Shown here piece after piece: positions 14,969 to 29,999 of a stretch of 64,000 nucleotides of DNA. Position 1 is the first letter of the stretch. Each line of letters opens with the position of its first letter. Source of the DNA: Bdellovibrionales bacterium (GTDB taxonomy: Bacteria; Bdellovibrionota; Bdellovibrionia; Bdellovibrionales; UBA1609); assembly GCA_019695175.1 (NCBI GenBank), contig JAIBAM010000001.1:149689-213688 (forward strand). The letters run 5' to 3'. Below the pieces are notes generated by a model, which worked only from the letters and a program-made list of their open reading frames with translations, had not been told where the DNA came from and made no database searches. The translations under genes were made by a program, and so were the position numbers.

Positions 14969-15426
14969 AAAAAGTTTAAATTGCTACTTAAAATCAAAGC
15001 TTGTCATATAATTGAAACAAAAATCAATCTACCTAATTCTTAGAGCCCATTCGAATTTGCCGTGTCTACGAACTTATTCAGAGATACTGCGTCAGCTGTT
15101 TACAGTTGGCACATCTTTTTTAAAATTAAATTCTTTCCTGTCCTTGAAATAAAAAATTGTCTTTGCAACTTGGCTGAGCCCAGCACTGAATGTAAAACAA
15201 TGAGCCATCCCAACAGACGGTTATTGCTCACACCCAATGTGTCTGCTAGTATTGTTATTAAGTTCTTGTGGGCTTAAGGACAAAATAAACCCTACAAGTG
15301 ATAGTACGGGGGCTGTCCCTGACAATGGTGTGCAAGCTCATTTCGATTGAGAAGCCTAAAGTTGTTATATGGCCTACCACGTTAACAAAAACGGGTTTAA
15401 TTTTTGCCTTCATGCTCCACAAGGAT

Positions 15427-15480
15427 GGTTTTTTAAAAAAATTCTTTAGAATTTAATCAAAAGGATTTTTTTAAAAAACC
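15427..15480. repeat. 21-bp near-perfect inverted repeat (hairpin-capable) in a long divergent intergenic region
   Basis: GGTTTTTTAAAAAAATTCTTT (15427-15447) pairs with AAAGGATTTTTTTAAAAAACC (15460-15480). One position is G:T and the loop is 12 nt (AGAATTTAATCA). It lies about 150 nt upstream of the ATG at 15633. Confidence 0.8.
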
Positions 15481-17506: not shown

Positions 17507-18517
17507 TCATTCATCATCTAGAATATAATTTTGCGGATCCACCGGAATCCCGTTGACGCGAACCTCATAATGAACATGAGGCCCAGAAGATCGACCTGTA
17601 GTCCCCACGGCCGCAATAATATCCCTTCGCGATACTTTTTTACCCTGTTCGGTAACAACTCTAGAGTTATGGGCAAATCGCGTCACCACGCCATAGCCGT
17701 GATCAATGGAAACAATCTTTCCATATCCTGGCTCAAATCCCACATAAGAAACCACCCCATCCGCTGGAGCGTACACCGGTGTTCCAGGAGGGGCCGCAAT
17801 ATCCAAACCGGCATGCATTTCAGGTCTTCCATTAAATGGGTCTACCCTATAGCCAAACCGAGAAGTGTACCACCCTCTGGCTGGCTTAATATTGGGTGTG
17901 GCATTTATTAAACTCTGACGTTCAGACAAACTCTCCCAAAGCTGCAAGACACCTTGTTCCCTTAGTTGGGTTTGCTGAATGGCTCGATCAATTCGAACCG
18001 AAAGAGAGGCATAATTTCGTTGATCATCCCTTGAAAGTTCACCTCCTTGCTCATCCAGAGGTAATTTTTCAGAAAAAGGGGCCTCTTTTGCCAAGAAAAA
18101 CTCCGAGGAAGGTTGTCGGTCCATTTTGATATTTTCCTCTTCACCTAAATCCTGACCCGGTTTTGCTATTGTTCCCATGGCTAAGTGCAGAGGTCGACTT
18201 TCATCCTCCACATTGGTAATGACCTTTAATTTTTTAGTGAAATTCTGAACCCGGTCTAAGTTTGACTCCAAAGAACTTAATTTGCTCTCCACCACTTGAA
18301 ACTGACGTTTCAAATGTTCATTCTCAGCTTTGAAAATTTTATTTTGATTTTCACTTTGCAGCAATCCAAAGTAGTCCACCGCGGCAGCCGTAAAAATAAC
18401 CAGAAAGGTAAAGCTCAAAATAATCGCAGCCTTTAACCAAGAAGAAGAAACGGTAAACGAAACTGTAGCTCCCCTTCGATTGCTCGCAATAATCAAGGTA
18501 TAAGTTTTACGATCCAT
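17507..18517 (-). CDS. M23 (LytM-domain) peptidoglycan endopeptidase/activator with N-terminal TM and coiled coil (EnvC-like layout)
   Basis: C-terminal M23 motifs HAGLDIAAPPGTPVYAPADGVV, GYGKIVSIDHGYGVVTRFAHNS and GTTGRSSGPHVHYEVRVNG. N-terminal TM (AAIILSFTFLVIFTAAAV) followed by a coiled coil. Confidence 0.9.
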   Translation of the reverse strand: MDRKTYTLIIASNRRGATVSFTVSSSWLKAAIILSFTFLVIFTAAAVDYFGLLQSENQNKIFKAENEHLKRQFQVVESKLSSLESNLDRVQNFTKKLKVITNVEDESRPLHLAMGTIAKPGQDLGEEENIKMDRQPSSEFFLAKEAPFSEKLPLDEQGGELSRDDQRNYASLSVRIDRAIQQTQLREQGVLQLWESLSERQSLINATPNIKPARGWYTSRFGYRVDPFNGRPEMHAGLDIAAPPGTPVYAPADGVVSYVGFEPGYGKIVSIDHGYGVVTRFAHNSRVVTEQGKKVSRRDIIAAVGTTGRSSGPHVHYEVRVNGIPVDPQNYILDDE

Positions 18518-18591
18518 GGTTAACCTTCCCCCCAGGGAATAGTTCTATTTTTTATTATCGATGAGGCGACAGTATCCCCCCGAACAAGAGC

Positions 18592-19314
18592 TTAGCCCAC
18601 TTTAATTACAATGACAGAGACATTGTCGTCTCCCCCTGCCTTCTTGGCCTCGGCGATGCACCTTTGCCCAATTTCTTTCACATGACCTTTCTGACAACAT
18701 TCTGCAATCTTTTTATTGGGAATTAAACTGGAAAGACCATCTGAACATATAATGTAAAGATCTTCCGACTGTAGATGACGTTCAATCACATCAGCAACCA
18801 CTTCTCTTTCAAATCCAACGCTTCGTGTAATTACATTTCTTCCCACCAAATTGTTAGATTCCTCTTCCACCATTCCAGCTTTTATCTGCTCATTGATTAG
18901 GGAATGATCCTCGGTCAATTGCCACAAGTTCCCTTCTCGACTCAAGTATACTCTAGAATCCCCCACGTTTGCTATATACGCCTTATTATCTAAAATCAAA
19001 AACACCACCATAGTTGTTCCCATACCCATGAGCTCAGGGGAGTCCACTGTGCTTTTGTGGTGGATGCGGGCACTGGCCTCGCGGTAGGCCTCAACTAATA
19101 TTCGCTTAGGTGATTTTTTTAATTGTCCCCAGTGCCTTTTTAAAAAATCCTGCAAAGTTTCCACGGCGAGCGCAGAGGCCACTTCTCCCCCGCGATGTCC
19201 CCCCATTCCATCTGCCACAATAAATAAACCCAATTCATAATCTACCAAGATTGAGTCCTGATTGATTTCACGTTTGAGTCCCACATCGGTCAAGGCCGCC
19301 ACTTCAAATTTCAT
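18592..19314 (-). CDS. PP2C-family Ser/Thr protein phosphatase
   Basis: Motifs ALTDVGLKREINQDS, FIVADGMGGHRGGEVAS, ICSDGL and GGDDNVSVIV. 240 aa. There is no adjacent kinase gene. Confidence 0.9.
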   Translation of the reverse strand: MKFEVAALTDVGLKREINQDSILVDYELGLFIVADGMGGHRGGEVASALAVETLQDFLKRHWGQLKKSPKRILVEAYREASARIHHKSTVDSPELMGMGTTMVVFLILDNKAYIANVGDSRVYLSREGNLWQLTEDHSLINEQIKAGMVEEESNNLVGRNVITRSVGFEREVVADVIERHLQSEDLYIICSDGLSSLIPNKKIAECCQKGHVKEIGQRCIAEAKKAGGDDNVSVIVIKVG

Positions 19315-19444
19315 TACTCACCCCTACCTTCAGAACCCAACAGAAAGTCAGGGCCTGATTGATTTATCCTCTCCAAACAGTTTACGGCGGGTCGGACCGA
19401 GGTTGAAGTGAAAATTTCAAGATTTCTCAGGGCCGGTTCAATTG

Positions 19445-19488
19445 GACTCATTTAATCCCCACTCTTGTGACTCATTTAATCCCCACTC
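19445..19488. repeat. perfect 20-bp tandem direct repeat (period 24 bp) in a divergent promoter region
   Basis: GACTCATTTAATCCCCACTC occurs at 19445-19464 and again at 19469-19488, separated by TTGT. This is 30-73 nt upstream of the probable ATG at 19518. Confidence 0.9.
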
Positions 19489-19517
19489 CTGCCGATAGGT
19501 TCCTTGAAGAGGTGTTC

Positions 19518-20573
19518 ATGCGACGACATTTACGCAGTTCCACGATTCTTTTTTTAATTGGATCTGCATTGTTACATCTATTATCCGGTGTAACGCTTTA
19601 CTTTAGTCCGGATCCATCACTAACCCAACAAGTCGCTACCCCGGTTGAAGTGGATTACCGAACCGAACCTGAGTCAAAAACAAAAAACAAAAAGTCCCAG
19701 CAAATTGTAGAACAGAAGAAACAAATTAATTCTGAAGAAGATCCCAACGCAAAATATTTAAGTGCTTTTAATCAGAAGATTCTCCAACAAACTCGCTCGG
19801 CACAGGCTGGAAAATTTAATAACAATCCCCAAAGTGAAAGTTCAACTCAACACCAAAGAAAGGTAAAGCCAACAAAGCGAATCCAAAAAAATGATTCCCT
19901 AGCAGAAATAAATGAAAAATCTCTTTCCCCAAAGTTTTCGGACATTAAACCCCAGTTTAATCCAGCCGCTCATCTAGGAACCTCCCAACCCAGTCCAACC
20001 CAAAATCAAGAGACTTCGGCAACAGATGATTACTTAAAAGATTTGAGTCTAGGCCCTCAAACTCTACTTTCTACCAGAGAATATATCTACTATTCATATT
20101 ACAATCGAATAAAAGAAAAAATAAAACTTCATTGGGAAACGCAAGTAAAAGAAAAAATCAGTATTGTTTTTCGACACGGAAGAACCATTGCCTCCAATAA
20201 AGATCACATCACACAGGTTGTGATTGTTCTCAACAAAGAAGGTCGTCTTATACGAGTTGAAATTTTGAGTCCCAGCGGGGTCCAAGATCTAGATCAAGCC
20301 GCCATTGATGCCTTCCAATCCGCGGAACCTTTTCCCAACCCACCCAAAGGTCTAGTCGAAAAGGACGGATTGATTCGAATCCGATGGGACTTTGTGTTGG
20401 AGGCTAGTCATTTCCACTCACCTGCTTTCCAAGACACTTACAGTTATGGATCGCAAAAGATAAAACTAATACCTTCCAATTTACCCTTGGCATTAAGACC
20501 TGAGTCAGGATATTCATATAAAGATTTAAATACGCTATTGAACAACAACCCTTCCAGTGAGTCGGTGTCTTGA
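19518..20573 (+). CDS. TonB C-terminal-domain protein (energy-transducer-like)
   Basis: N-terminal anchor MRRHLRSSTILFLIGSALLHLLSGVTLYF, a long K/Q/S/P-rich linker, and a TonB_C-like block (VVIVLNKEGRLIRVEILSPSGVQDLDQAAIDAFQSAEPFPNPP). The track ORF starts at GTG 19467. ATG 19518 is preferred because it follows GAAGAGGTG and gives a typical TonB N-terminus. Confidence 0.75.
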   Translation: MRRHLRSSTILFLIGSALLHLLSGVTLYFSPDPSLTQQVATPVEVDYRTEPESKTKNKKSQQIVEQKKQINSEEDPNAKYLSAFNQKILQQTRSAQAGKFNNNPQSESSTQHQRKVKPTKRIQKNDSLAEINEKSLSPKFSDIKPQFNPAAHLGTSQPSPTQNQETSATDDYLKDLSLGPQTLLSTREYIYYSYYNRIKEKIKLHWETQVKEKISIVFRHGRTIASNKDHITQVVIVLNKEGRLIRVEILSPSGVQDLDQAAIDAFQSAEPFPNPPKGLVEKDGLIRIRWDFVLEASHFHSPAFQDTYSYGSQKIKLIPSNLPLALRPESGYSYKDLNTLLNNNPSSESVS

Positions 20574-23469: not shown

Positions 23470-24270
23470 ATGGTTCCAGCAATCGAAAATATTCCGAACC
23501 ACGGTTTTACACTCATTCCGGAAAAACAGAATTATGATCCCACCATTGTTTTCGTTCATCATTTTGGAGGCTCTCGCACCCATGTGAAAAAACATCAACA
23601 ATTTGTGGCCCAACTGGGTTTTAAATCCGTGGCCTTTGATTTAAGCTTTCCCAACTCAAGACAAATACTGACCTCGCTATTTAAATCTGAAAATTCCGCA
23701 CCCTTATTGCTCCGTTCAAGATGGAGTTATGAAATCTCACAAGTTCTTGATTGTATTGAAGGTGATAAAATACTTTTTTCCTTTTCTTTTCCCTCCAATG
23801 CAACCGCCCATTCAATCGCAAATCGCAAAGAAAAAGACATCCTGAGTTGGATTTGCGACGGTGGACCATTTTTAAAACCTTGGCAATGCGGCTGGAATCT
23901 CTGCACTTTTCAATATCCTGAAAGGAGCCCACTCTACAAATCAATGCAGCTCCTAAAGCGATGGTTTGCCATGGAAATGTGGTCATTTAAGTCGGAACTT
24001 TATAGTGACTTACAAAAATTTCCTGAAAATTTTCCCATCTTAAGTATAAGATCCTGGCAAGACCCGTTAGTTCCAATTTCAGCCATTGACGAAGCCTTTT
24101 CGGGAAACAATAAAATTCATTTAGAAACATTAACTTTAACAGAATCCGGACATCTCAATGGCCTTCGAACCACGCCACAAGTATACAAACCGAGGGTTGA
24201 AGATTTTTTAAAGCGTTTTTCAAAAAAAACTCCTCTCGACGAAACAAAAATACAACATTTATTGACCTAG
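23470..24270 (+). CDS. hypothetical protein, alpha/beta-hydrolase-fold-like
   Basis: IVFVHHFGGSRTHVKKHQQFVAQLGFKSVAFD resembles the strand-loop start of alpha/beta hydrolases. I saw no clean GxSxG elbow. The track ORF starts at 23431, inside the E1-like gene. ATG 23470 begins 2 nt after that gene's TAA and is preferred. Confidence 0.55.
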   Translation: MVPAIENIPNHGFTLIPEKQNYDPTIVFVHHFGGSRTHVKKHQQFVAQLGFKSVAFDLSFPNSRQILTSLFKSENSAPLLLRSRWSYEISQVLDCIEGDKILFSFSFPSNATAHSIANRKEKDILSWICDGGPFLKPWQCGWNLCTFQYPERSPLYKSMQLLKRWFAMEMWSFKSELYSDLQKFPENFPILSIRSWQDPLVPISAIDEAFSGNNKIHLETLTLTESGHLNGLRTTPQVYKPRVEDFLKRFSKKTPLDETKIQHLLT

Positions 24271-26769
24271 ATCTTGAATCGCTTTCAACCAATATAATTT
24301 GGTTTCATTTTGAAAGATCATAAAATTTTTATTTGTCTTGAGAGTTTCTTTTAGTTTCTGCAATCCAAGTTCCTCAAGTTCTCGCATTTTTTTGACTCCC
24401 ATGTCAACAAAATCCACATGAATTTGCTTACTTTCTTCATCTAACTGACTGATGAGAGTTCTCTCTATTGCAACCGCCTTGGATAAATCCTCATCATCCA
24501 AAAGCAGTCTATCCACAAATGTTTTGTGTAAATGTTTTATCCATTCCTTTTCCAATTGGGTGTCTTTTTGAACCTCTGAAAAGTGCAATGTGTGCAAAAT
24601 ATTGTCCGTATATGTTTCTTTCCACTCTCCATCTTTCTTGGGTTGATATTTATTGTTTTGCGACTCCCTTTGTTCTCTTCCATAAAGTTGACCCGCTGTT
24701 TCCCCACGATCATTCATAATTGAGAACCACTTCAATAAGGGATCATATCCCCAAATTTTGGCTCCACAGAAAACCAAAACTAAAGCAGCACCAAGCGACA
24801 AGCCCACCTTTTGTACGAGTGATTTTCTTTTCTTTTCAATAAACTGTATCTCTTTACTCACATCTTCATTGGGGTACGAAGGTAAATCTAAAAATTTTTC
24901 ATCCAATGACTTTAGAATTGTATCTGAAACAATGGTTTGAATTGTTTCCTTAGACAAAGCTTTAGTAGACCCCGATGTGGTCCACTCCACGTACTGAAAG
25001 GTCAGGGATTCAACAATACTTGATATAATTCTATCTTTCTTTTGGTAAAAAGCATCCACAGAATTTTTTATTTCTTTTCGAAGTAAATCCTCTTGCTTCA
25101 TTCTTGAATGGTAAATTTCATCTTCTGATTTTTTCTTACTCATCTCGATTTGTTGTGAAATTTTATTTTTGTTATTTTGTAGTTCTAGATCGAAATTTTG
25201 TTGTTCACTTTTTCTTAAAAGTTCTAATTTTTTTATTTCTTCCGTTAAGCCAAGTTCTTGACGTTTATAGTCCGAAATCAACTGTTGAGTGTTTTTTAAT
25301 TCAGCTTCAGTGTCTTTAATTTTTTTGGACAACAATTCCCATTCATTTTTCGACTGGACCAATTGTTGTGATAGTTTTTCGTTTTCTGCACTCACTTTGA
25401 TTGATTCCTGTTTATATTGAGTGCACAGAGTCTTAAGTTCTTCTAGTGACTTATTTTCGTCTTGGATTTTTAACACAATTTTCTGCAAATTTTCTTTTTC
25501 TAAGGCTTGTCGATTTGTTAATTCTATCTTTTCTTTTTCAAAAATTTTATTCTGTTCATTTATTTTTTCATCAAGGAGCTTTGCACGAATTTCCCGTTCT
25601 GCATACCATTGTTCCCGTTCCATTTTCAGCTCAGTTTCCACATTTTTCTTCCACAAATCCATTTCCCTATTTTTATCTTGATACTCCATTTCTAATTTTT
25701 GTTTGGTAGATTCAAATAAATTATGTACTTCTTTCTGAGCTTGAGAGGTAATTTGTTCCGCTTGCGATTGAGCTAATTTCCGTGTCGATTCCATTGTATC
25801 TGTTGCCAAAAGTTGAGCCTTTTTTGAAATTTCATCAGCTCTTACCTTTGCATTTTCAACAATTCGATCCGCTTCTTTTTGTGCTTCCTCATTTCGACTC
25901 TTCAGTAATTGTTCAGCGGTTCGATTCGCTTCACGCCAAATTTCATCCGATTTTGCAGCAATTTCAATTTCTTTTCTTTTTGCTAAATCTAATAACCTTT
26001 GCGTTTCAAACTGCATCGACTCAGCTTCTACTTTTGCCTTTTCAATGAGTTTCGCAGCTTTTGTTTCCGCTTCTAACAAATGAGATTGTGCAATTTCTTT
26101 TGATTCCTTCAAATTTTTTTCTGCCGCCGAGTGAATTTCCATAACCACGGCATCCGCCTTGCTCTTTGCAGATTGAAAGGTATTTTTATGGAATAAATTG
26201 GCCTCATCAATTAATTTTTTTGCCAATTGCTCAGATTCATTTTTAATTTTTTGAGCTTCCGTCTGAGCCTCTTGTAACAAAAAATCAGCATCACTTTTCT
26301 TTTGATCAAAAATTCTTTGTGATAATTCAAAGGCCTTTTTTTCAGCTTCTTGAACTTGTTCCTTCACTGACAACATTAAATTTTCAATTTGCCCCAAATG
26401 CTCTTCATCAAGACCCAACTGAGTCAGTTTTTTAGGGTCAATTTTTTTTGGCAACAGCTTAAATTGAATGGATACATCAACATCACCCAATTGAATCCAC
26501 TCATCTGTTTTGTAGGATGTCATTTCATTTTTTACTAAAACAAAATCCCCCATTGAAGTGCCAATACTACTTCCCAAATCCTTTAACCAAATCTTCCCTT
26601 GTTCTACTGAAACTTCCAAATGACGACGAGAAACACGTGGATCCGGTATGACCAATTCATTTTCGACAGAGCGCCCTAAACCAAATTTTTCTTCATCTAA
26701 AATAATTTGTTCAACTTTTCCCTGACCCCATTTCAAAGTCACGAGTATGGCATATCCTTTCATTCTCAT
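24259..26769 (-). CDS. FHA-domain protein with very long repetitive coiled coil, one TM and a C-terminal extracytoplasmic domain
   Basis: The N-terminal FHA signature is FGLGRSVENELVIPDPRVSRRHLEVSVEQGKIWLKDLGSSIGT. From about aa 120 to 600 the sequence is K/E/Q/A-rich heptad-like repeats, such as EAQTEAQKIKNESEQLAKKLIDEA, EAETKAAKLIEKAKVEAES and EEAQKEADRIVENAKVRADEISKKA. The TM segment is VGLSLGAALVLVFCGAKIW. A tail of about 160 aa follows. Confidence 0.85.
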   Translation of the reverse strand: MRMKGYAILVTLKWGQGKVEQIILDEEKFGLGRSVENELVIPDPRVSRRHLEVSVEQGKIWLKDLGSSIGTSMGDFVLVKNEMTSYKTDEWIQLGDVDVSIQFKLLPKKIDPKKLTQLGLDEEHLGQIENLMLSVKEQVQEAEKKAFELSQRIFDQKKSDADFLLQEAQTEAQKIKNESEQLAKKLIDEANLFHKNTFQSAKSKADAVVMEIHSAAEKNLKESKEIAQSHLLEAETKAAKLIEKAKVEAESMQFETQRLLDLAKRKEIEIAAKSDEIWREANRTAEQLLKSRNEEAQKEADRIVENAKVRADEISKKAQLLATDTMESTRKLAQSQAEQITSQAQKEVHNLFESTKQKLEMEYQDKNREMDLWKKNVETELKMEREQWYAEREIRAKLLDEKINEQNKIFEKEKIELTNRQALEKENLQKIVLKIQDENKSLEELKTLCTQYKQESIKVSAENEKLSQQLVQSKNEWELLSKKIKDTEAELKNTQQLISDYKRQELGLTEEIKKLELLRKSEQQNFDLELQNNKNKISQQIEMSKKKSEDEIYHSRMKQEDLLRKEIKNSVDAFYQKKDRIISSIVESLTFQYVEWTTSGSTKALSKETIQTIVSDTILKSLDEKFLDLPSYPNEDVSKEIQFIEKKRKSLVQKVGLSLGAALVLVFCGAKIWGYDPLLKWFSIMNDRGETAGQLYGREQRESQNNKYQPKKDGEWKETYTDNILHTLHFSEVQKDTQLEKEWIKHLHKTFVDRLLLDDEDLSKAVAIERTLISQLDEESKQIHVDFVDMGVKKMRELEELGLQKLKETLKTNKNFMIFQNETKLYWLKAIQDLGQ

Positions 26770-26896
26770 ACTTCCTTAAGATCAAGTGAACACATTTATA
26801 GGATCAAATCCCCAGTCCCTACTCTCAAAATACCATCGCATCAACTGCAATAGGCTCAACACCGACTCCGTAATACAAAGTTGCTGCAATACTCGA

Positions 26897-27841
26897 TCAG
26901 GCAGATTTAATTTTATCAAAATCTCGTGATCGTTCGTTTTGTTTTAAAACCTGTGTAATAGCTTGTTCTGCGAGTGCTTCCGAAGGATCTCGATGCTCAT
27001 CAAATTTACCTTCATCTACTGGGTAAAGATTATTATTACTACGGTACCACAAAAGATCTAGCGAACTTTCAAAACGATCCACAACATCTACAAAAACCCG
27101 ATCAGGTGAATAAAGTGTGTTTATAAATGTCATGCTAACTGAAAAAAATATCCCCACAATTGAACTATTCATGGCAAATGAAATCTCTAGCAAAAATTGA
27201 TCCATAATTTGTTTAGAAATATCCATATTGGAGAGATCCATTTTGCCAAGAGCCGGTAACCCCTTCACAATTCCTAAAAAGGTACCAAAGATTCCACCAA
27301 TGACAAATAAAGAGGGTAGTATCTGTAAAATATCATGAATACGATTTACGGAGAAGAAACCAAATATATAATTAAAACAAGGATTTTTCTGAAATGTATT
27401 TTTAGTAATATTGATTAATTTTGGGTTTTGATCATTCCATCTTAAAAATTTAAGTTGACTCAATAAATCTTTAACCAGCCAGGCCATTCCTTGTTTAATT
27501 AAAAAAATTCGATCACTAAGCGTGATTATTCTATCATTACGACGGCGACTCAATCGATCTCTTACTTCAAAAATTTCGTAGTATGTTTTTTCCAACATCC
27601 GCTTAGTTAAGGAGTAAAATGAGTAAGAGCCAGATTGGCCGGGAGTTTCATCCTCTATAAACTTTTGCACGCGTTTTTCAAATTCTTTCGCAAACCAATC
27701 ATGGCGTTTTACGGTGTAGTAAGTCATGATTCTAAAAACAATTCCCAAAAAGTAAAACACAATCATAGTTGGCAAAACCAAATTCAATGCAAAATTGATC
27801 AGATGATCATTGAGAAATTTTATAATCAAATGCGACAACAT
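26897..27841 (-). CDS. MotA/TolQ/ExbB-family proton-channel protein (3-TM, ExbB/TolQ-like topology)
   Basis: TM1 is LVLPTMIVFYFLGIVFRIM, followed by a cytoplasmic loop of about 130 aa. The TM2/TM3 pair carries the family signature: LPSLFVIGGIFGTFLGIVKGL (compare PLLGLLGTVxGM) and EISFAMNSSIVGIFFSVSMTF (compare EALxTTxxGLxxAIP). Confidence 0.7.
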   Translation of the reverse strand: MLSHLIIKFLNDHLINFALNLVLPTMIVFYFLGIVFRIMTYYTVKRHDWFAKEFEKRVQKFIEDETPGQSGSYSFYSLTKRMLEKTYYEIFEVRDRLSRRRNDRIITLSDRIFLIKQGMAWLVKDLLSQLKFLRWNDQNPKLINITKNTFQKNPCFNYIFGFFSVNRIHDILQILPSLFVIGGIFGTFLGIVKGLPALGKMDLSNMDISKQIMDQFLLEISFAMNSSIVGIFFSVSMTFINTLYSPDRVFVDVVDRFESSLDLLWYRSNNNLYPVDEGKFDEHRDPSEALAEQAITQVLKQNERSRDFDKIKSA

Positions 27842-27920
27842 ATTTACCCCTTATTTCTTTCCCTTTTAAAATTCTTATCCCTTTTTAAGCCCAGTGAAAT
27901 CCAATGAAAATAAACACAAT

Positions 27921-29498
27921 CTAATTTCCCAGTTCAAATCTAACGATCACTTTTTGTGCTTTTTTACAATCCTGCTGAGCACAAAAATCATGTTTGTTTT
28001 GATTGGCTAATCTTCTTAAACTCTTTACTTCTGACAAAAAGCTCCGCCCTGAAACCTTCACTAGAGGTAAAATTTCTTCTTGATACTTAAAAGTCATTTT
28101 ATTTTTATCAAATAAATATTGAAATATCGAACGTGCACGGTTGTAACTTAAATCTAAATTGAAATCGACAGCCTTACGTTCATCCTGATTTAAAAAATCA
28201 GGATCCACCAATTTACCCTTATATGTTGGTGATGCGTATCCAATAATTTCTATTGCACTTATTTTGACTTTTGCCTTTGGATTTTCATAAAGTGAAGTTG
28301 CATAAAGTGGAAACGCTTTTCTTAAAATTTGCACCATTCCATCTTTTAAGTTGGACTTTCCCGAATCAAAGTATTGATCTCCAAAATTAATAATCACATC
28401 GCCAGTTTCTGAGTTTACATCCGCTTTAACTCCAGCCTTGGCAAATGACTTTTTAATTTCAGCAGCGATATTTTTCCTCGCATTGGCTTCTTCCAAAGCT
28501 CGATTCAAATGATTTTGTGTTGTGGCCATTTTCTCTTTGAGTTGAACAATTTTTTCAGCCATGGCTTGGGCTTTGCTGTCTCCTTTAGCTTTTTGTTCTT
28601 CAAAATTTTTATTGAGTTCTGCCAATTGAGTCTCATATTGACCTTTGTTTGCCTCTAGTTTTTGTACCAAATCTTGTTTTTGTGTTTCGACTTTTGTCAA
28701 TGCACCTTTAGCAGACTCTAACTCACTACTTAAACCCGAAAGTTCTTCTGTGGTTTTTCGCAATTGGGCTTTGTAACCCTCATTTTTCTCTTCCAGTTCT
28801 TTAAGTTCATTGTTTTTAGCTTCTTTAATTTCATTCATTTTATTTTCATAGGCTTTTTTAGTCATATGCTGAGCCTGATAAGCAGCCTTTAACTCTTGAG
28901 TTTTATGAACAAATTGACTTTTCACCTGAGCAATCATTTTCTCATTCTCAGTCAATTCATTTTGCTGAGCACTGACTTGATCTTCCAGTTGCTCAATTGT
29001 TTGTTTTGAATCTTTCAACTCTTGGTTTTTTTGTCCAATAACCAAATCCTTCCGCTTAATTTTAGCGGCTGCAAGTACGTTGGAGTTGATCATATTTCTA
29101 ACTAGTTTTTGGTATTGGTTCAGTGCATTTTCTTTATTTTCATTCTCTAGGGCCGCCTGCTTTAGCCTCTCCTTCTCAGTCTTTGCGTCTTCTTTAAGAA
29201 GAGACAGCTTATCTAATAGACCCTGGTACATTTTATTTTCTTCCACTGAAGAATCGTCTAAATAATCCTGCCGAATGGTGTTATAGGCCTTCAATTGATT
29301 TTTCAAATCTTGAACTTGTTGAACAAGTTTTTCTCTTTCGACTTGTTGTTGTAATCCTGTCGTCCCAGAGCGTAAACTTGCCGTTACATACAACAAAAGG
29401 AATACCACAGAGAGCCCCAAGAATAAGTCTGAGTAAGAAGTCCACTGACTTCCACCCTCTTCAGTTTGTTTTTTTGCACGCGAATATTGAAAACTCAA
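27921..29498 (-). CDS. MotB/OmpA-family protein with ~290-aa coiled-coil insertion between the TM helix and the peptidoglycan-binding domain
   Basis: The N-terminus WTSYSDLFLGLSVVFLLLYV matches the MotB TM helix including the conserved Asp (E. coli WKIAYADFMTAMMAFFLV). Residues ~50-345 are continuous heptad-like K/E/Q-rich sequence. The C-terminal OmpA-like domain reads IIGYASPTY...NLDLSYNRARSIFQYL...VSGRSF. The start is TTG, preceded by AGGAGG at a 7-nt spacing. Confidence 0.8.
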   Translation of the reverse strand: MSFQYSRAKKQTEEGGSQWTSYSDLFLGLSVVFLLLYVTASLRSGTTGLQQQVEREKLVQQVQDLKNQLKAYNTIRQDYLDDSSVEENKMYQGLLDKLSLLKEDAKTEKERLKQAALENENKENALNQYQKLVRNMINSNVLAAAKIKRKDLVIGQKNQELKDSKQTIEQLEDQVSAQQNELTENEKMIAQVKSQFVHKTQELKAAYQAQHMTKKAYENKMNEIKEAKNNELKELEEKNEGYKAQLRKTTEELSGLSSELESAKGALTKVETQKQDLVQKLEANKGQYETQLAELNKNFEEQKAKGDSKAQAMAEKIVQLKEKMATTQNHLNRALEEANARKNIAAEIKKSFAKAGVKADVNSETGDVIINFGDQYFDSGKSNLKDGMVQILRKAFPLYATSLYENPKAKVKISAIEIIGYASPTYKGKLVDPDFLNQDERKAVDFNLDLSYNRARSIFQYLFDKNKMTFKYQEEILPLVKVSGRSFLSEVKSLRRLANQNKHDFCAQQDCKKAQKVIVRFELGN

Positions 29499-29543
29499 AA
29501 TGCAGCCTCCTAGCTAAACTGCTATCGGAGTTTTCTTGGAAAA

Positions 29544-29585
29544 TTTTAAGCGTCGGGTTTTAAGTGTCAGATTTTAAGTTCCAGG
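29544..29585. repeat. three tandem 14-bp units each starting TTTTAAG, upstream of the MotB-like gene
   Basis: The units are TTTTAAGCGTCGGG (29544-29557), TTTTAAGTGTCAGA (29558-29571) and TTTTAAGTTCCAGG (29572-29585), at an exact 14-bp period. An inverted copy, CTTAAAA, lies at 29623-29629. The array is 46-87 nt upstream of the TTG start at 29498. Confidence 0.85.
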
Positions 29586-29895
29586 CTCAGAACGGCGCGT
29601 CCAGACCTCTTAACAGGACCGACTTAAAACTTGTCTAAAGATGCTATGAGTTAAAACTCCACAACGCATACTACAACTGTGGCAAAAAAGTTTTCAGTTT
29701 GCTCATCCATTGAATTTCATAATTAGATGGCTCTCGTTTTTTGAAATTCACTGTCTCCCGTTTTTGAGCACGGGTGGCGCCCAGTTATGAAATTTTGCAA
29801 TTTAATACAGTAGTGTCTTCAAACAGACTCTAAGCTCTTTTAATCTCGTCTTCTCGACTTTAGACCAATTATTCTCAATTAGAGTTATTTTGTTC

Positions 29896-29926
29896 AAAAA
29901 AAAAGGGAGACACTTCCATGTCTCCC
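29896..29926 (-). terminator. rho-independent terminator of groEL
   Basis: On the minus strand it reads GGGAGACA-TGGAAG-TGTCTCCC followed by TTTTTTTTT. The stems are at 29905-29912 and 29919-29926, and the A9 run on the plus strand is at 29896-29904. It lies about 75 nt after the groEL stop. Confidence 0.85.
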
Positions 29927-29999
29927 TAATATCTGAGCTACAGTTTTTTTTCTTTTTAATGAGAACTGTTCAGCACACGATAGATGTAAGTGGATTTAC

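What the first reader, a model, noticed from the sequence alone, without database searches (positions are those of the whole stretch)
24259..29498. Candidate novel ion-driven envelope machine: MotB/OmpA-type subunit with a long periplasmic coiled coil, ExbB/TolQ/MotA-type channel and an FHA / coiled-coil / TM protein
Seen: three same-strand genes.
(i) 27921-29498 has a MotB-type TM helix that keeps the proton-accepting Asp (WTSYSDLFLGLSVVFLLLYV, against E. coli MotB WKIAYADFMTAMMAFFLV). It also has a C-terminal OmpA/MotB peptidoglycan-binding domain (IIGYASPTY...NLDLSYNRARSIFQYL). About 290 residues of uninterrupted heptad-like K/E/Q-rich sequence separate the two.
(ii) 26897-27841 is a 3-TM protein whose last two helices carry the MotA/TolQ/ExbB signature (LPSLFVIGGIFGTFLGIV ... 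EISFAMNSSIVGIFFSVSM).
(iii) 24259-26769 has an N-terminal FHA domain, roughly 450-500 aa of repetitive coiled coil, one TM and a tail of about 160 aa.
Established: MotAB, ExbBD, TolQR and ZorAB are related 5:2 ion-driven motors. FHA domains bind phospho-Thr.
Unusual points:
- The order is B-before-A.
- The long coil is on the B (stator-anchor) subunit rather than on the A subunit as in Zorya ZorA.
- There are no adjacent flagellar, Tol-Pal, ExbD/TonB or ZorC/D/E genes.
- Long coils are predicted on both faces of the inner membrane.
- An FHA partner is present, and a kinase-less PP2C phosphatase lies at 18592-19314.
Inference: this is a proton-motive-force-powered, phospho-regulated, envelope-spanning device of unknown output. 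Possible outputs include motility, envelope remodelling, prey or phage interaction, and signalling.
Basis: partly seen in the sequence, partly recalled or inferred. Interest (0 to 1): 0.72.

Follow-up and report, generated by a model that had tools for sequence, protein, structure and literature searches.

The report
Zorya-like envelope motor of Bdellovibrio relatives
Three neighbouring genes encode an uncharacterised, probably proton-driven membrane motor, related to the ZorAB anti-phage motor but built differently, that is conserved across predatory Bdellovibrio-type bacteria and is switched on in their hunting phase.

Summary
On the minus strand, 29498-27921 (525 aa), 27841-26897 (314 aa) and 26769-24259 (836 aa) form one operon.

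- The 525-aa protein is ZorB/MotB-like. It has an invariant TM Asp (WTSYSDLF), a ~310-residue proline-free helical spacer, and a ZorB-type peptidoglycan-binding domain with conserved PG-binding residues.
- The 314-aa protein has the ZorA/ExbB/TolQ fold and the invariant channel residues Thr187 and Ser227, but no ZorA tail.
- The 836-aa protein is FHA, long cytoplasmic coil, one TM, then a conserved ~160-aa periplasmic domain of unknown family.

The order B-A-FHA is kept in 76-77 of 80 Bdellovibrionia loci, with no other conserved neighbour; the PP2C is not linked. The B-A pair extends to Bacteriovoracaceae and Oligoflexales MAGs, where the third gene is a small cNMP-binding protein instead.

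The B. bacteriovorus HD100 orthologues are Bd1167-Bd1169. These are misannotated ("microtubule binding", "Ala/Glu-rich"). They form a published attack-phase-specific operon, induced 26-55-fold. The window carries a near-consensus FliA-type attack-phase promoter.

Most likely this is a signal-gated 5:2 ion-driven motor that is not a defence system. Its output is unknown. I rate it a new variant of a known kind.

The parts
29904..29927 (-). Intrinsic terminator after groEL. It separates groESL from the trio.
   Evidence: 10-bp stem with 5 GC pairs followed by T8; sequence read.
29523..29549 (-). Predicted FliA (sigma-28)-type attack-phase promoter, TTAAA-N16-CCGATA, 24 nt upstream of the B start codon. 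It lies inside a 14-nt x 2.6 tandem repeat (29543-29579) that triplicates the CTTAAAA box.
   Evidence: Sequence. It matches 10/11 positions, with exact spacing, of the B. bacteriovorus attack-phase consensus TTAAG-N16-CCGATA (PMC3627812). The same motif lies upstream of B in 23/69 loci, against 1.7 +/- 1.3 in shuffles. Tandem repeat. This is a prediction; no transcription start site has been mapped for this organism.
29506..29511 (-). Shine-Dalgarno AGGAGG, 7 nt before the TTG start of B.
   Evidence: Read directly from the sequence.
27921..29498 (-). B subunit (525 aa, TTG start). ZorB/MotB-type axle: short cytoplasmic N-terminus, one TM helix, long periplasmic helical spacer, PG-binding domain.
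   Evidence: PADLOC ZorB1 E 2.2e-28. Profile against PDB finds ZorB 8qyd_F at 1.7e-6 and 8vvi_A. The AF2 model's best Foldseek hit is ZorB 8vvn_A, E 2.2e-6, TM-score normalised to the target 0.63.
29376..29444 (-). TM helix of B (residues 19-41) with the ion-accepting Asp24 (codon 29427-29429).
   Evidence: WTSYSDLF is kept in 178/179 homologues. It aligns to ZorB FWISYADL, which contains Asp26. Asp26 is essential in ZorB (PMC11946911).
28434..29372 (-). Periplasmic helical spacer of B (residues 43-355). The membrane-proximal half is conserved and includes ALNQYQKLVRNMINSN. The distal part is variable, with an indel hot spot near residues 301-325.
   Evidence: AF2 helices 22-82, 85-208, 214-303 and 309-355. 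No Pro. Conservation profile. Spacer length is 281-445 aa in 179 homologues.
27924..28433 (-). ZorB-type (OmpA-like) peptidoglycan-binding domain of B (residues 356-525), with a conserved Cys506/Cys511 pair.
   Evidence: ZorB PG-binding residues Y151/N152/L155/R159 (PMC11946911) align to F446 (Tyr in most homologues) and to N447, L450 and R454, which are invariant. The Cys pair is present in 177/179. Sister-lineage B proteins give sub-threshold Pfam OmpA hits at 3e-5.
26897..27841 (-). A subunit (314 aa). 3-TM ZorA/ExbB/TolQ-fold channel protein with a 130-aa cytoplasmic domain and a 70-aa conserved cytoplasmic C-terminus. It has no ZorA tail.
   Evidence: Pfam MotA_ExbB E 0.016, below threshold. 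PADLOC ZorA 4.5e-7. Profile against PDB finds only ZorA chains, 4e-6 to 5e-4. AF2 pLDDT 78.7. Foldseek's top 43 hits are all ZorA, TolQ or ExbB. The newer Pfam family PF28082 ZorA-like_t1 hits homologues weakly. T187 and S227 are invariant and align to ZorA T147 and S184.
24259..26769 (-). Third subunit (836 aa): cytoplasmic FHA domain (26488-26679), long cytoplasmic helical region (about 24820-26442), TM helix (24745-24807), and conserved periplasmic C-terminal domain of unknown family (24262-24744).
   Evidence: FHA Pfam E 6.2e-10. The GR, SR-x-H and NG motifs are conserved in homologues; the window copy has Ile in place of the Asn. TM and tail. The C-terminal domain is conserved but has no Pfam or PDB match.

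Best explanation
The first two genes encode a 5:2-type ion-driven membrane motor of the ZorAB lineage.

**Proposed assembly**
- A pentamer of the 314-aa, ZorA-like but tail-less protein surrounds a dimer of the 525-aa ZorB-like protein.
- Proton flow through Asp24 of B, gated by Thr187 and Ser227 of A, drives rotation of A relative to B.
- B is fixed to peptidoglycan by its C-terminal domain. Unlike any described relative, B carries a 280-870-residue helical spacer in the periplasm between the membrane helix and the PG-binding domain. I read this spacer as a tether, torsion element or lateral spoke rather than a fixed-length ruler.

**Third gene**
- The third gene is a swappable cytoplasmic signal-input or coupling subunit.
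- In Bdellovibrionia, including this window, it is the FHA, coil, TM, periplasmic-domain protein. I propose that its TM helix docks on the A ring, as TolA, TonB and GltG dock on TolQ, ExbB and AglR. I propose that its periplasmic domain binds the conserved membrane-proximal part of the B spacer, and that its FHA domain reads a phospho-threonine signal.
- In Bacteriovoracaceae and Oligoflexales MAGs the slot holds a small cNMP-binding protein.

**Role**
- The machine is a vertically inherited housekeeping system of the phylum, expressed in the attack phase. It is not an anti-phage system.

**Shown versus inferred**
- Shown: homology, fold, conserved residues, synteny and expression.
- Inferred: stoichiometry, ion drive, the docking contacts, the direction of signalling (cytoplasmic signal gating the motor), and the mechanical output.
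For: **Homology and fold**
- A.
- B.

**Functional residues kept**
- B Asp24 motif in 178/179 homologues.
- A T187 and S227 invariant and aligned to ZorA T147 and S184.
- PG-binding N447, L450 and R454 invariant.
- A periplasm-type Cys pair in 177/179.

**Operon**
- B-A-FHA is kept in 76-77 of 80 genome loci, with gaps of about 12 nt and 0-30 nt and no other conserved neighbour.
- The same holds in metagenome loci.

**Swappable third gene**
- Sister subfamily: A profiles match with hhalign probability 100, E 1e-41.
- Its layout is B (484-1093 aa), then A, then a cNMP_binding protein of about 155 aa (Pfam 1.9e-21), with no FHA gene.

**Possible docking site**
- The B periplasmic motif LNxYQxx(V/I)(R/K)N is present in 92/97 loci with the FHA gene and in 0/13 cNMP-type loci.

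**Precedent**
- GltG, which has a cytosolic FHA domain, one TM helix and a periplasmic domain, binds the AglR ring through its TM helix (PMC11761067; PMC3169522).
- Small nucleotide-binding proteins that gate 5:2 motors by binding the A subunit (YcgR, MotI) are known; this rests on my own knowledge.

**Not a defence system**
- One copy in each complete Bdellovibrio genome returned.
- Housekeeping neighbours.
- No ZorC, ZorD or ZorE.
- No relatives on viral contigs.

**Expression**
- Bd1167-1169 are attack-phase specific: 26-, 55- and 36-fold induced, with a mapped transcription start site and the operon annotated as 1167-1168-1169 (PMC3627812 Tables S1 and S2).
- Bd1167 is down-regulated 30 min into predation (PMC2797640).
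- FliA-type promoter in the window and enriched upstream of B across loci.
Against: - No complex model or stoichiometry could be computed here.
- A misses the Pfam MotA_ExbB threshold (15.4 bits against 22.9), and Foldseek E-values for A are only about 3e-3.
- The TM helix of the FHA protein is poorly conserved apart from small-xxx-small spacing. It lacks the His-containing motif of TolA and TonB (own knowledge).
- The window's FHA domain has Ile where the conserved Asn of the NG motif sits.
- Some lineages have the B-A pair with no recognisable third gene, so the third subunit is not essential to the core.
- A PG-anchored axle on a long flexible spacer would be a poor torque reference. It is open which part turns.
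- Bd1167-1169 are absent from the Bd-tagged predation-defect lists of the 109J Tn-seq study, so no strong predation phenotype is on record.
Confidence: 0.55

Rival explanations
1. Outside-in sensor, as in Zorya. The long periplasmic B spacer and PG-binding domain detect an envelope event such as prey contact, wall damage or a change in periplasm geometry. That event releases ion flow and rotation of A. The FHA-coil protein, or the cNMP-binding protein, then relays the event to cytoplasmic targets.
For: - The closest solved relatives are ZorAB, which are proposed to work this way (PMC11946911).
- The long cytoplasmic coil of the FHA protein could stand in, in trans, for the missing ZorA tail.
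- Attack-phase expression fits prey sensing.
Against: - FHA and cNMP-binding domains are receivers of cytoplasmic signals, not generators. This fits inside-out control better.
- No effector gene is linked.
- Oligoflexales, not known as obligate predators (own knowledge), also carry the pair.
Confidence: 0.2
2. Flagellum-associated unit. The pair would be an accessory stator-like or scaffold component of the sheathed polar flagellar motor. The B spacer would act as a periplasmic spoke, as the TM-coil-head proteins FlbB and FlgY do. Expression would be part of the sigma-28 late flagellar regulon.
For: - Sigma-28-type promoters lie upstream of B in the window and are enriched across loci, including the sister lineage.
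- motAB are sigma-28 genes in enterobacteria (own knowledge).
- TM-anchored dimeric coiled-coil spokes exist in flagellar motors (PMC13023049).
- A fliL gene lies nearby in one locus.
Against: - In B. bacteriovorus FliA is a global attack-phase regulator that controls many non-flagellar genes (PMC3627812). The HD100 promoter of Bd1167 is scored as lacking the FliA motif.
- A has the 3-TM ExbB/ZorA layout, not the 4-TM MotA layout with a torque interface.
- No flagellar gene is a conserved neighbour.
- B. bacteriovorus already has three canonical motAB pairs (PMC13147790; own knowledge).
Confidence: 0.13
3. A divergent Zorya-type anti-phage system in which the FHA protein replaces ZorC/D as effector or regulator.
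For: The best HMM and structure matches are to ZorA and ZorB.
Against: - Scores are far below the curated ZorA and ZorB cut-offs, for example 26.9 bits against 100-750.
- A has no tail. The gene order is reversed. There are no ZorC, ZorD or ZorE genes.
- It is single-copy and vertically conserved, at 55-70% identity for A across families.
- Flanks are housekeeping genes.
- It is absent from viral contigs.
- Expression is developmentally regulated in the attack phase.
Confidence: 0.05
4. Not a working motor. The pair would be a structural tether or periplasmic skeleton element that has kept an ancestral stator fold. The earlier 'crescentin-like cytoskeletal' reading of Bd1167 belongs to this kind of idea.
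For: - Very long and variable coiled coils are typical of scaffolds.
- Bd1167 was read as a crescentin-like protein (PMC2797640).
- Weak Pfam Rod_CreS-type coil hits appear in homologues.
Against: - The ion-pathway residues are invariant over the whole family: Asp24 in B, Thr187 and Ser227 in A. That is not expected for a relic.
- The coil lies on the periplasmic side of a single TM helix, next to a PG-binding domain with a Cys pair. It therefore cannot be a cytoplasmic cytoskeleton.
Confidence: 0.07

Closest known systems
ZorAB, the membrane core of the Zorya anti-phage systems (E. coli 8qyd; Shewanella 8vvn)
   Same: - Best sequence, profile and structure match for both subunits.
- A has 3 TM helices, with Thr and Ser lining the channel.
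- B has a TM Asp and a PG-binding domain with the same Y/N/L/R PG-binding motif and stabilising cysteines.

   Different: - A has no 500-aa cytoplasmic tail.
- B has a spacer of about 300 aa (up to about 870 aa) where ZorB fuses the TM helix directly to the PG-binding domain.
- The gene order is B then A.
- There are no ZorC, ZorD or ZorE partners.
- It is vertically inherited, single-copy and regulated in the attack phase.
- HMM scores are far below the ZorA and ZorB cut-offs.
TolQR-TolA, ExbBD-TonB and AglRQS-GltG (5:2 motors with a third single-TM partner)
   Same: - The A fold is shared; TolQ and ExbB are the next-best structure hits.
- A third bitopic protein is encoded with the motor.
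- GltG has the same outline as the window's third protein: cytosolic FHA, one TM helix, periplasmic domain.
   Different: - B is OmpA/ZorB-like, not ExbD/TolR-like.
- The third protein's long element is cytoplasmic, not periplasmic.
- Its periplasmic domain is not TonB_C or TolA_C and has no family match.
- Its TM helix is near the C-terminus.
GldLM / PorLM (type IX secretion and gliding motor)
   Same: As here, the two-copy axle subunit carries the long periplasmic extension, rather than the A subunit. This comparison rests on my own knowledge and on PMC9389320 and PMC8986121 as listed.
   Different: - No sequence or fold match was found here.
- GldM has no PG-binding domain, and its periplasmic part is made of globular domains, not a coiled coil.
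- The gene order is A then B.
MotAB / PomAB flagellar stators
   Same: - Asp-bearing B helix.
- OmpA-like PG anchor.
- Sigma-28-type promoter.
   Different: - A has 3 TM helices, not 4, and lacks a torque-generating cytoplasmic domain.
- No MotB plug was detected.
- The Pfam MotA_ExbB and OmpA families are not reached at threshold.
- The order is B then A, whereas surveyed stators are always A then B (PMC12505986).

Membership tests
MotA/TolQ/ExbB/ZorA superfamily (A subunit of 5:2 motors) | Match to Pfam PF01618 at the gathering score | tested here: not met
   15.4 bits against 22.9, E 0.016, at the correct TM2-TM3 region. Homologues score similarly.
MotA/TolQ/ExbB/ZorA superfamily (A subunit of 5:2 motors) | Fold of a solved A subunit | tested here: met
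   AF2 pLDDT 78.7. The first 43 Foldseek PDB hits are all ZorA, TolQ or ExbB, mostly with probability 0.93-1.00. Against ZorA, the TM-score normalised to the target is 0.53-0.60 and E is about 3e-3.
MotA/TolQ/ExbB/ZorA superfamily (A subunit of 5:2 motors) | Polar Thr in TM2 (GxxGT) and Ser/Thr in TM3 facing the B Asp | tested here: met
   T187 and S227 are invariant in 20 homologues. They align to ZorA T147 and S184.
MotA/TolQ/ExbB/ZorA superfamily (A subunit of 5:2 motors) | A5:B2 assembly and ion-driven rotation | not testable with these tools
   No multimer prediction or experiment was available.
MotB/ZorB-type axle subunit | Single N-terminal TM helix with a conserved Asp near the cytoplasmic end | tested here: met
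   WTSYSDLF is kept in 178/179 homologues. It aligns to the ZorB Asp26 region.
MotB/ZorB-type axle subunit | C-terminal OmpA-like PG-binding domain with PG-contact residues | tested here: met
   PADLOC ZorB1 2.2e-28. Foldseek ZorB 8vvn_A 2.2e-6. N447, L450 and R454 are invariant and correspond to ZorB N152, L155 and R159. Pfam OmpA is not reached for the window protein. Actual PG binding was not tested.
Zorya defence system (ZorAB plus effectors) | ZorA and ZorB HMMs at curated cut-offs | tested here: not met
   NCBIfam ZorA models score 13-27 bits against cut-offs of 100-750. ZorB2 scores 28 bits against 400.
Zorya defence system (ZorAB plus effectors) | Long C-terminal cytoplasmic tail on ZorA | tested here: not met
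   A ends about 70 residues after TM3. Longer relatives carry disordered acidic or Pro-rich tails, not coils.
Zorya defence system (ZorAB plus effectors) | Linked ZorC/ZorD, ZorE or ZorF/G genes | tested here: not met
   There is no conserved neighbour other than the FHA gene in 80 loci. The window's neighbours are groESL, a dehydrogenase-like gene and similar housekeeping genes.
Zorya defence system (ZorAB plus effectors) | PG-binding domain fused to the TM helix without a linker | tested here: not met
   281-445 helical residues are inserted in the main family and more in sister lineages. The ZorB arrangement is described in PMC11946911.
Flagellar stator MotAB | 4-TM MotA with a large TM2-TM3 cytoplasmic torque domain, a MotB plug, and A-then-B order | tested here: not met
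   A has the 3-TM ExbB/ZorA layout. No MotB_plug hit was found. The order is B then A in every locus, against A then B in all surveyed stators.
FHA domain proteins | Pfam PF00498 at threshold and phospho-Thr-binding Arg/Ser/His/Asn | tested here: met
   39.8 bits against 20.7. R33, S47, R48 and H50 are present. The NG Asn is Ile in the window copy and Asn in at least 90% of homologues. Binding was not tested.
GltG / TolA / TonB-type transducers | TonB_C or TolA C-terminal domain | tested here: not met
   The C-terminal domain has no Pfam or PDB match, either as a profile or as 51 separate members.

The most novel reading that the evidence does not exclude
This would be a distinct class of 5:2 ion-driven machine, phylum-wide in Bdellovibrionota. 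In it the two-copy axle subunit carries a very long periplasmic coiled coil ending in a wall-binding domain, and cytoplasmic second-messenger or phospho-threonine readers plug into the ring. It would be a housekeeping cousin of the Zorya phage-defence motor that does mechanical work on, or measures, the cell wall during the hunting phase. If so, it would show that ZorAB-type motors were recruited from, or into, normal envelope physiology, and it would add a new way of coupling rotation to the periplasm.
Probability: 0.35. Interest if true: 0.82.

Novelty: new variant of a known kind. Interest (0 to 1): 0.7.

Why it matters
- **Few known output types.** Only a handful of output types are known for 5:2 ion-driven motors: flagellar torque, Ton uptake, Tol-Pal constriction, gliding and T9SS, and Zorya defence.
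- **An unrecognised member.** This locus is conserved and highly expressed, yet it has been annotated as "microtubule-binding", "myosin", "SMC" or "Ala/Glu-rich", and once discussed as a crescentin-like cytoskeletal protein.
- **Testable in a tractable organism.** Recognising it as a motor gives Bdellovibrio biology a concrete candidate, Bd1167-1169 in a genetically tractable strain. It is an attack-phase envelope machine with clear point mutants: D24N in B, T187A/S227A in A, and FHA Arg/Ser mutants.
- **A non-defence relative of Zorya.** Its natural domain swaps may help show how ZorAB senses the wall and how rotation is coupled to partners. The swaps are: the tail supplied in trans, a spacer inserted in B, and an FHA versus cNMP input.

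Tried and rejected
- **FHA836 homologue search.** The full-database search was swamped by coiled-coil word matches and returned only 2 weak hits. Homologues were taken from the syntenic loci instead.
- **Structure of the FHA836 C-terminal domain.** Profile searches against PDB and Pfam found nothing.
- **PP2C as partner.** Rejected: no PP2C lies near the trio in any of the 80 loci. The window holds no Hanks-kinase catalytic motif.
- **groESL co-transcription.** Rejected because of the terminator and the lack of synteny.
- **Mobile or defence origin.** No relatives were found on viral contigs. The low GC content of the region probably reflects its K/E/Q-rich coils (my inference).
- **First metagenome scan.** The scan with the broad alignment A6 failed because there was no conserved stretch. 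It was repeated with A7.
- **Geometry of the B spacer.** AF2 gives helix breaks at 83-84, 209-213 and 304-308, with high confidence around residues 170-250, which hints at a hairpin.
- **Tn-seq (PMC6561027).** Bd1167-1169 are not in the Bd-tagged predation-defect tables. The full table uses 109J locus tags and was truncated, so their fitness values could not be read.
- **Literature.** Searches for FHA/MotA/Zor terms with Bdellovibrio found no functional study.

Full report
**1. What is there**

Three ORFs lie head to tail on the minus strand:
- B525, 29498-27921, TTG start;
- A314, 27841-26897;
- FHA836, 26769-24259.

groES and groEL lie upstream on the same strand. A strong intrinsic terminator at 29927-29904 follows groEL. 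The trio also has its own AGGAGG ribosome-binding site and promoter-like elements. It is therefore a separate transcription unit.

**2. The B subunit**

Pfam finds nothing in B525. Other searches place it clearly:
- The PADLOC ZorB1 model matches at E 2.2e-28 in two stretches, the N-terminal helix and residues 317-494.
- A profile of 25 homologues finds E. coli ZorB (8qyd_F, 1.7e-6) through the N-terminal helix. It finds a type II ZorB (8vvi_A) through the C-terminal domain.
- An AlphaFold2 model (pLDDT 73.7) has helices at 22-82, 85-208, 214-303 and 309-355, followed by an alpha/beta domain at 359-523.
- The model's only strong Foldseek hit is Shewanella ZorB (8vvn_A): E 2.2e-6, probability 1.0, TM-score normalised to the target 0.63.

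Functional residues are conserved:
- The motif WTSYSDLF, with Asp24, is present in 178 of 179 homologues. It aligns to ZorB FWISYADL, whose Asp26 is essential.
- The ZorB PG-binding residues Y151, N152, L155 and R159 (PMC11946911) correspond to F446 (Tyr in most homologues), N447, L450 and R454. The last three are invariant.
- A Cys-x4-Cys pair is kept in 177 of 179 homologues. This fits a periplasmic, disulfide-stabilised domain, as in ZorB.

The new feature is the spacer. ZorB fuses its PG-binding domain to the TM helix without a linker. Here 281-445 proline-free helical residues intervene (median 354; about 310 in the window). Residues 26-150 are well conserved, residues 226-325 are variable, and there is an indel hot spot near 301-325.

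**3. The A subunit**

A314 reaches Pfam MotA_ExbB only below threshold (E 0.016). Other evidence is stronger:
- All PADLOC and NCBIfam hits are ZorA models, down to 4.5e-7 and far below the curated cut-offs.
- A profile of 20 homologues finds only ZorA chains in the PDB, at 4e-6 to 5e-4.
- The newer Pfam family PF28082, "ZorA-like_t1", hits homologues weakly.
- The AF2 model (pLDDT 78.7) retrieves ZorA first (E about 3e-3, probability 1.0, TM-score normalised to the target 0.53-0.60). TolQ and ExbB follow. The first 43 hits are all A subunits of 5:2 motors.

The layout is ExbB/ZorA-like:
- TM1;
- a 130-residue cytoplasmic domain;
- TM2 and TM3;
- a conserved cytoplasmic C-terminus of about 70 residues.

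Thr187 (GGIFGTF, TM2) and Ser227 (TM3) are invariant. They align with ZorA Thr147 and Ser184, which gate access to the Asp. There is no ZorA-type tail.

**4. The third protein**

FHA836 has these parts:
- A bona fide FHA domain (Pfam 39.8 bits). The GR and SR-x-H motifs are intact. The NG Asn, present in at least 90% of homologues, is Ile in this copy.
- A helical region at residues about 110-650. It is 29% Glu plus Lys and has only 3 prolines, all within a few residues of its ends.
- A hydrophobic helix at residues 655-675, preceded by KKRK.
- A C-terminal domain of 161 residues. It is the second most conserved part of the protein.

The topology is therefore FHA domain and coil in the cytoplasm, with the C-terminal domain in the periplasm.

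In homologues the coil length varies widely (whole proteins of 700-1180 aa). The tail stays at 150-175 residues. The tail has no Pfam or PDB relative.

**5. Synteny and distribution**

A314 has 883 database relatives, all unnamed or "hypothetical", from Bdellovibrionota. A scan of species-representative genomes found 133 loci.

In the best 80 loci:
- B lies directly upstream in 77 and the FHA gene directly downstream in 76. The exceptions are at contig ends.
- Intergenic gaps are about 12 nt (B to A) and 0-30 nt (A to FHA).
- No other gene is conserved around the trio.
- groESL and the PP2C are never neighbours.
- Each complete Bdellovibrio genome appears once.
- No relative is on viral contigs.

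An exhaustive profile search finds only 444 cluster representatives at 50% identity, so the family is compact.

A sister subfamily was also found. Its A profiles match the main family with hhalign probability 100, E 1e-41. Its sources are named Oligoflexales and Bacteriovoracaceae. It has:
- the same B-then-A order;
- B proteins of 484-1093 aa, with an even longer spacer and a more canonical OmpA-like end (GHASP...RRVEI; Pfam OmpA 3e-5);
- as third gene, a cNMP-binding protein of about 155 aa (Pfam 1.9e-21) instead of the FHA protein.

A few intermediate lineages have the pair with no recognisable third gene.

The core is therefore the B-A pair. The third position is a swappable module that reads a cytoplasmic signal.

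A conserved motif in the periplasmic spacer of B, LNxYQxx(V/I)(R/K)N, is found in 92 of 97 loci that carry the FHA gene and in 0 of 13 cNMP-type loci. I take this as a candidate docking site for the periplasmic domain of the FHA protein. That is an inference.

**6. Link to published data**

The B. bacteriovorus orthologues carry uninformative or misleading names: "microtubule-binding protein" for B, "hypothetical protein" for A, and "FHA domain-containing protein" for the third gene.

In strain HD100 they are:
- Bd1167, "microtubule binding protein";
- Bd1168, hypothetical, 301 aa, 12-nt gap after Bd1167;

The match rests on gene sizes, spacing and the near-identical upstream sequence.

Karunker et al. 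(PMC3627812) report the following:
- All three genes are attack-phase specific.
- Induction is 26-, 55- and 36-fold.
- RPKM is 932, 1354 and 527 in attack phase, against 35, 23 and 14 in growth phase.
- A transcription start site was mapped.
- The operon is annotated as 1167-1168-1169.

Lambert et al. (PMC2797640) found Bd1167 down-regulated 30 min into predation. They read it as a crescentin-like cytoskeletal protein.

No paper in the library treats these genes as a motor. They are absent from the Bd-tagged predation-defect tables of the 109J Tn-seq study.

**7. Promoter**

The window carries TTAAA-N16-CCGATA at 29549-29523, 24 nt upstream of the start codon. The published attack-phase (FliA) consensus is TTAAG-N16-CCGATA.

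Allowing one mismatch per box, the motif occurs:
- upstream of B in 23 of 69 loci, against 1.7 +/- 1.3 in shuffles and 1 on the opposite strand;
- in 5 of 7 sister-lineage loci, against 0.2 expected.

CGAT[AG] alone occurs in 41 of 69 upstream regions, against 13.6 expected. HD100 itself was scored as lacking the motif.

The promoter in the window is a prediction.

**8. Interpretation**

Several facts argue for a working ion-driven 5:2 motor of the ZorAB lineage:
- the invariant ion-pathway residues;
- the ZorA and ZorB folds;
- tight operon coupling;
- strong purifying selection on the whole of A.

Several facts argue against a defence role:
- vertical, single-copy inheritance;
- housekeeping flanks;
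- the absence of effector genes;
- developmental regulation.

The third-gene swap, between FHA (a phospho-threonine reader) and cNMP-binding (a cyclic-nucleotide reader), points to control of the motor by cytoplasmic signals. This resembles YcgR or MotI acting on MotA (own knowledge). GltG of the Myxococcus gliding machine has a cytosolic FHA domain, one TM helix bound to the AglR ring, and a periplasmic domain. It is the nearest architectural precedent for the third protein.

The spacer on B varies three-fold in length between lineages. A fixed periplasm-spanning ruler is therefore unlikely. A tether, a torsion element or a lateral spoke fits better. TM-anchored dimeric coiled-coil spokes are known in flagellar motors.

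What the machine moves or senses is not known.

**9. Rivals**

Four rival readings are scored in the rival section:
- an outside-in Zorya-like sensor;
- a flagellum-associated unit, favoured by the sigma-28 promoters;
- a true defence system;
- a non-motor scaffold.

**10. Verdict**

- The family assignment should be ZorAB-like rather than MotAB-like.
- The PP2C should be dropped.
- The FHA partner is one of at least two interchangeable input modules.

This is a new variant of a known kind of machine. It has an experimentally tractable orthologue set, Bd1167-1169.

Noticed in passing
window 15259-15430 (+): 6S RNA (SsrS). Rfam RF00013 scores 46.6 bits, just above the gathering score of 46.4.
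   Followed up: no
window 29543-29579 (minus-strand reading CTGACACTTAAAAT x 2.6): A 14-nt tandem repeat triplicates the CTTAAAA box just upstream of the B gene. Only the third copy has the right spacing to CCGATA. The extra copies could be regulator sites or promoter slippage variants.
   Followed up: partly
C-termini of A314 homologues (A1, A6) and of the cNMP-binding proteins in L083-L123: Many A proteins and nearly all the linked cNMP-binding proteins end in a similar basic-Ala/Ser tail...KKAS...KSA...KKAA...EKAA. This shared C-terminal tag is unexplained. It could be a docking or degradation signal.
   Followed up: no
window 24259-26769, residue 69 of FHA836: The Asn of the FHA 'NG' motif, present in at least 90% of homologues, is Ile in this genome's copy (SSIGT instead of SSNGT). 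This may alter phosphopeptide binding.
   Followed up: no
window 29570-29904: About 330 nt of non-coding sequence lies between the groEL terminator and the predicted promoter of the trio. It has no Rfam match at gathering score.
   Followed up: no
window 17507-20573: A cluster of envelope and signalling genes lies near the trio but is not syntenic with it: an M23 peptidase (17507-18517, -), a PP2C phosphatase (18592-19314, -) and a TonB-C-domain protein (19467-20573, +). No Hanks-type kinase catalytic motif occurs anywhere in the 64-kb window.
   Followed up: partly
P0262, P0284, P0289, P0335, P0336 (distant A-family relatives): Some relatives of A carry 200-330-residue C-terminal extensions. 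These are acidic or proline-rich and look disordered, not coiled-coil tails as in ZorA.
   Followed up: no
PMC6561027 Data Sets S4-S6: Other FHA-domain proteins of B. bacteriovorus, Bd0472 and Bd0473, and the kinase Bd3148 show strong predation-fitness defects in Tn-seq. They are candidates for the phospho-signalling network that the FHA836/Bd1169 domain might read.
   Followed up: no
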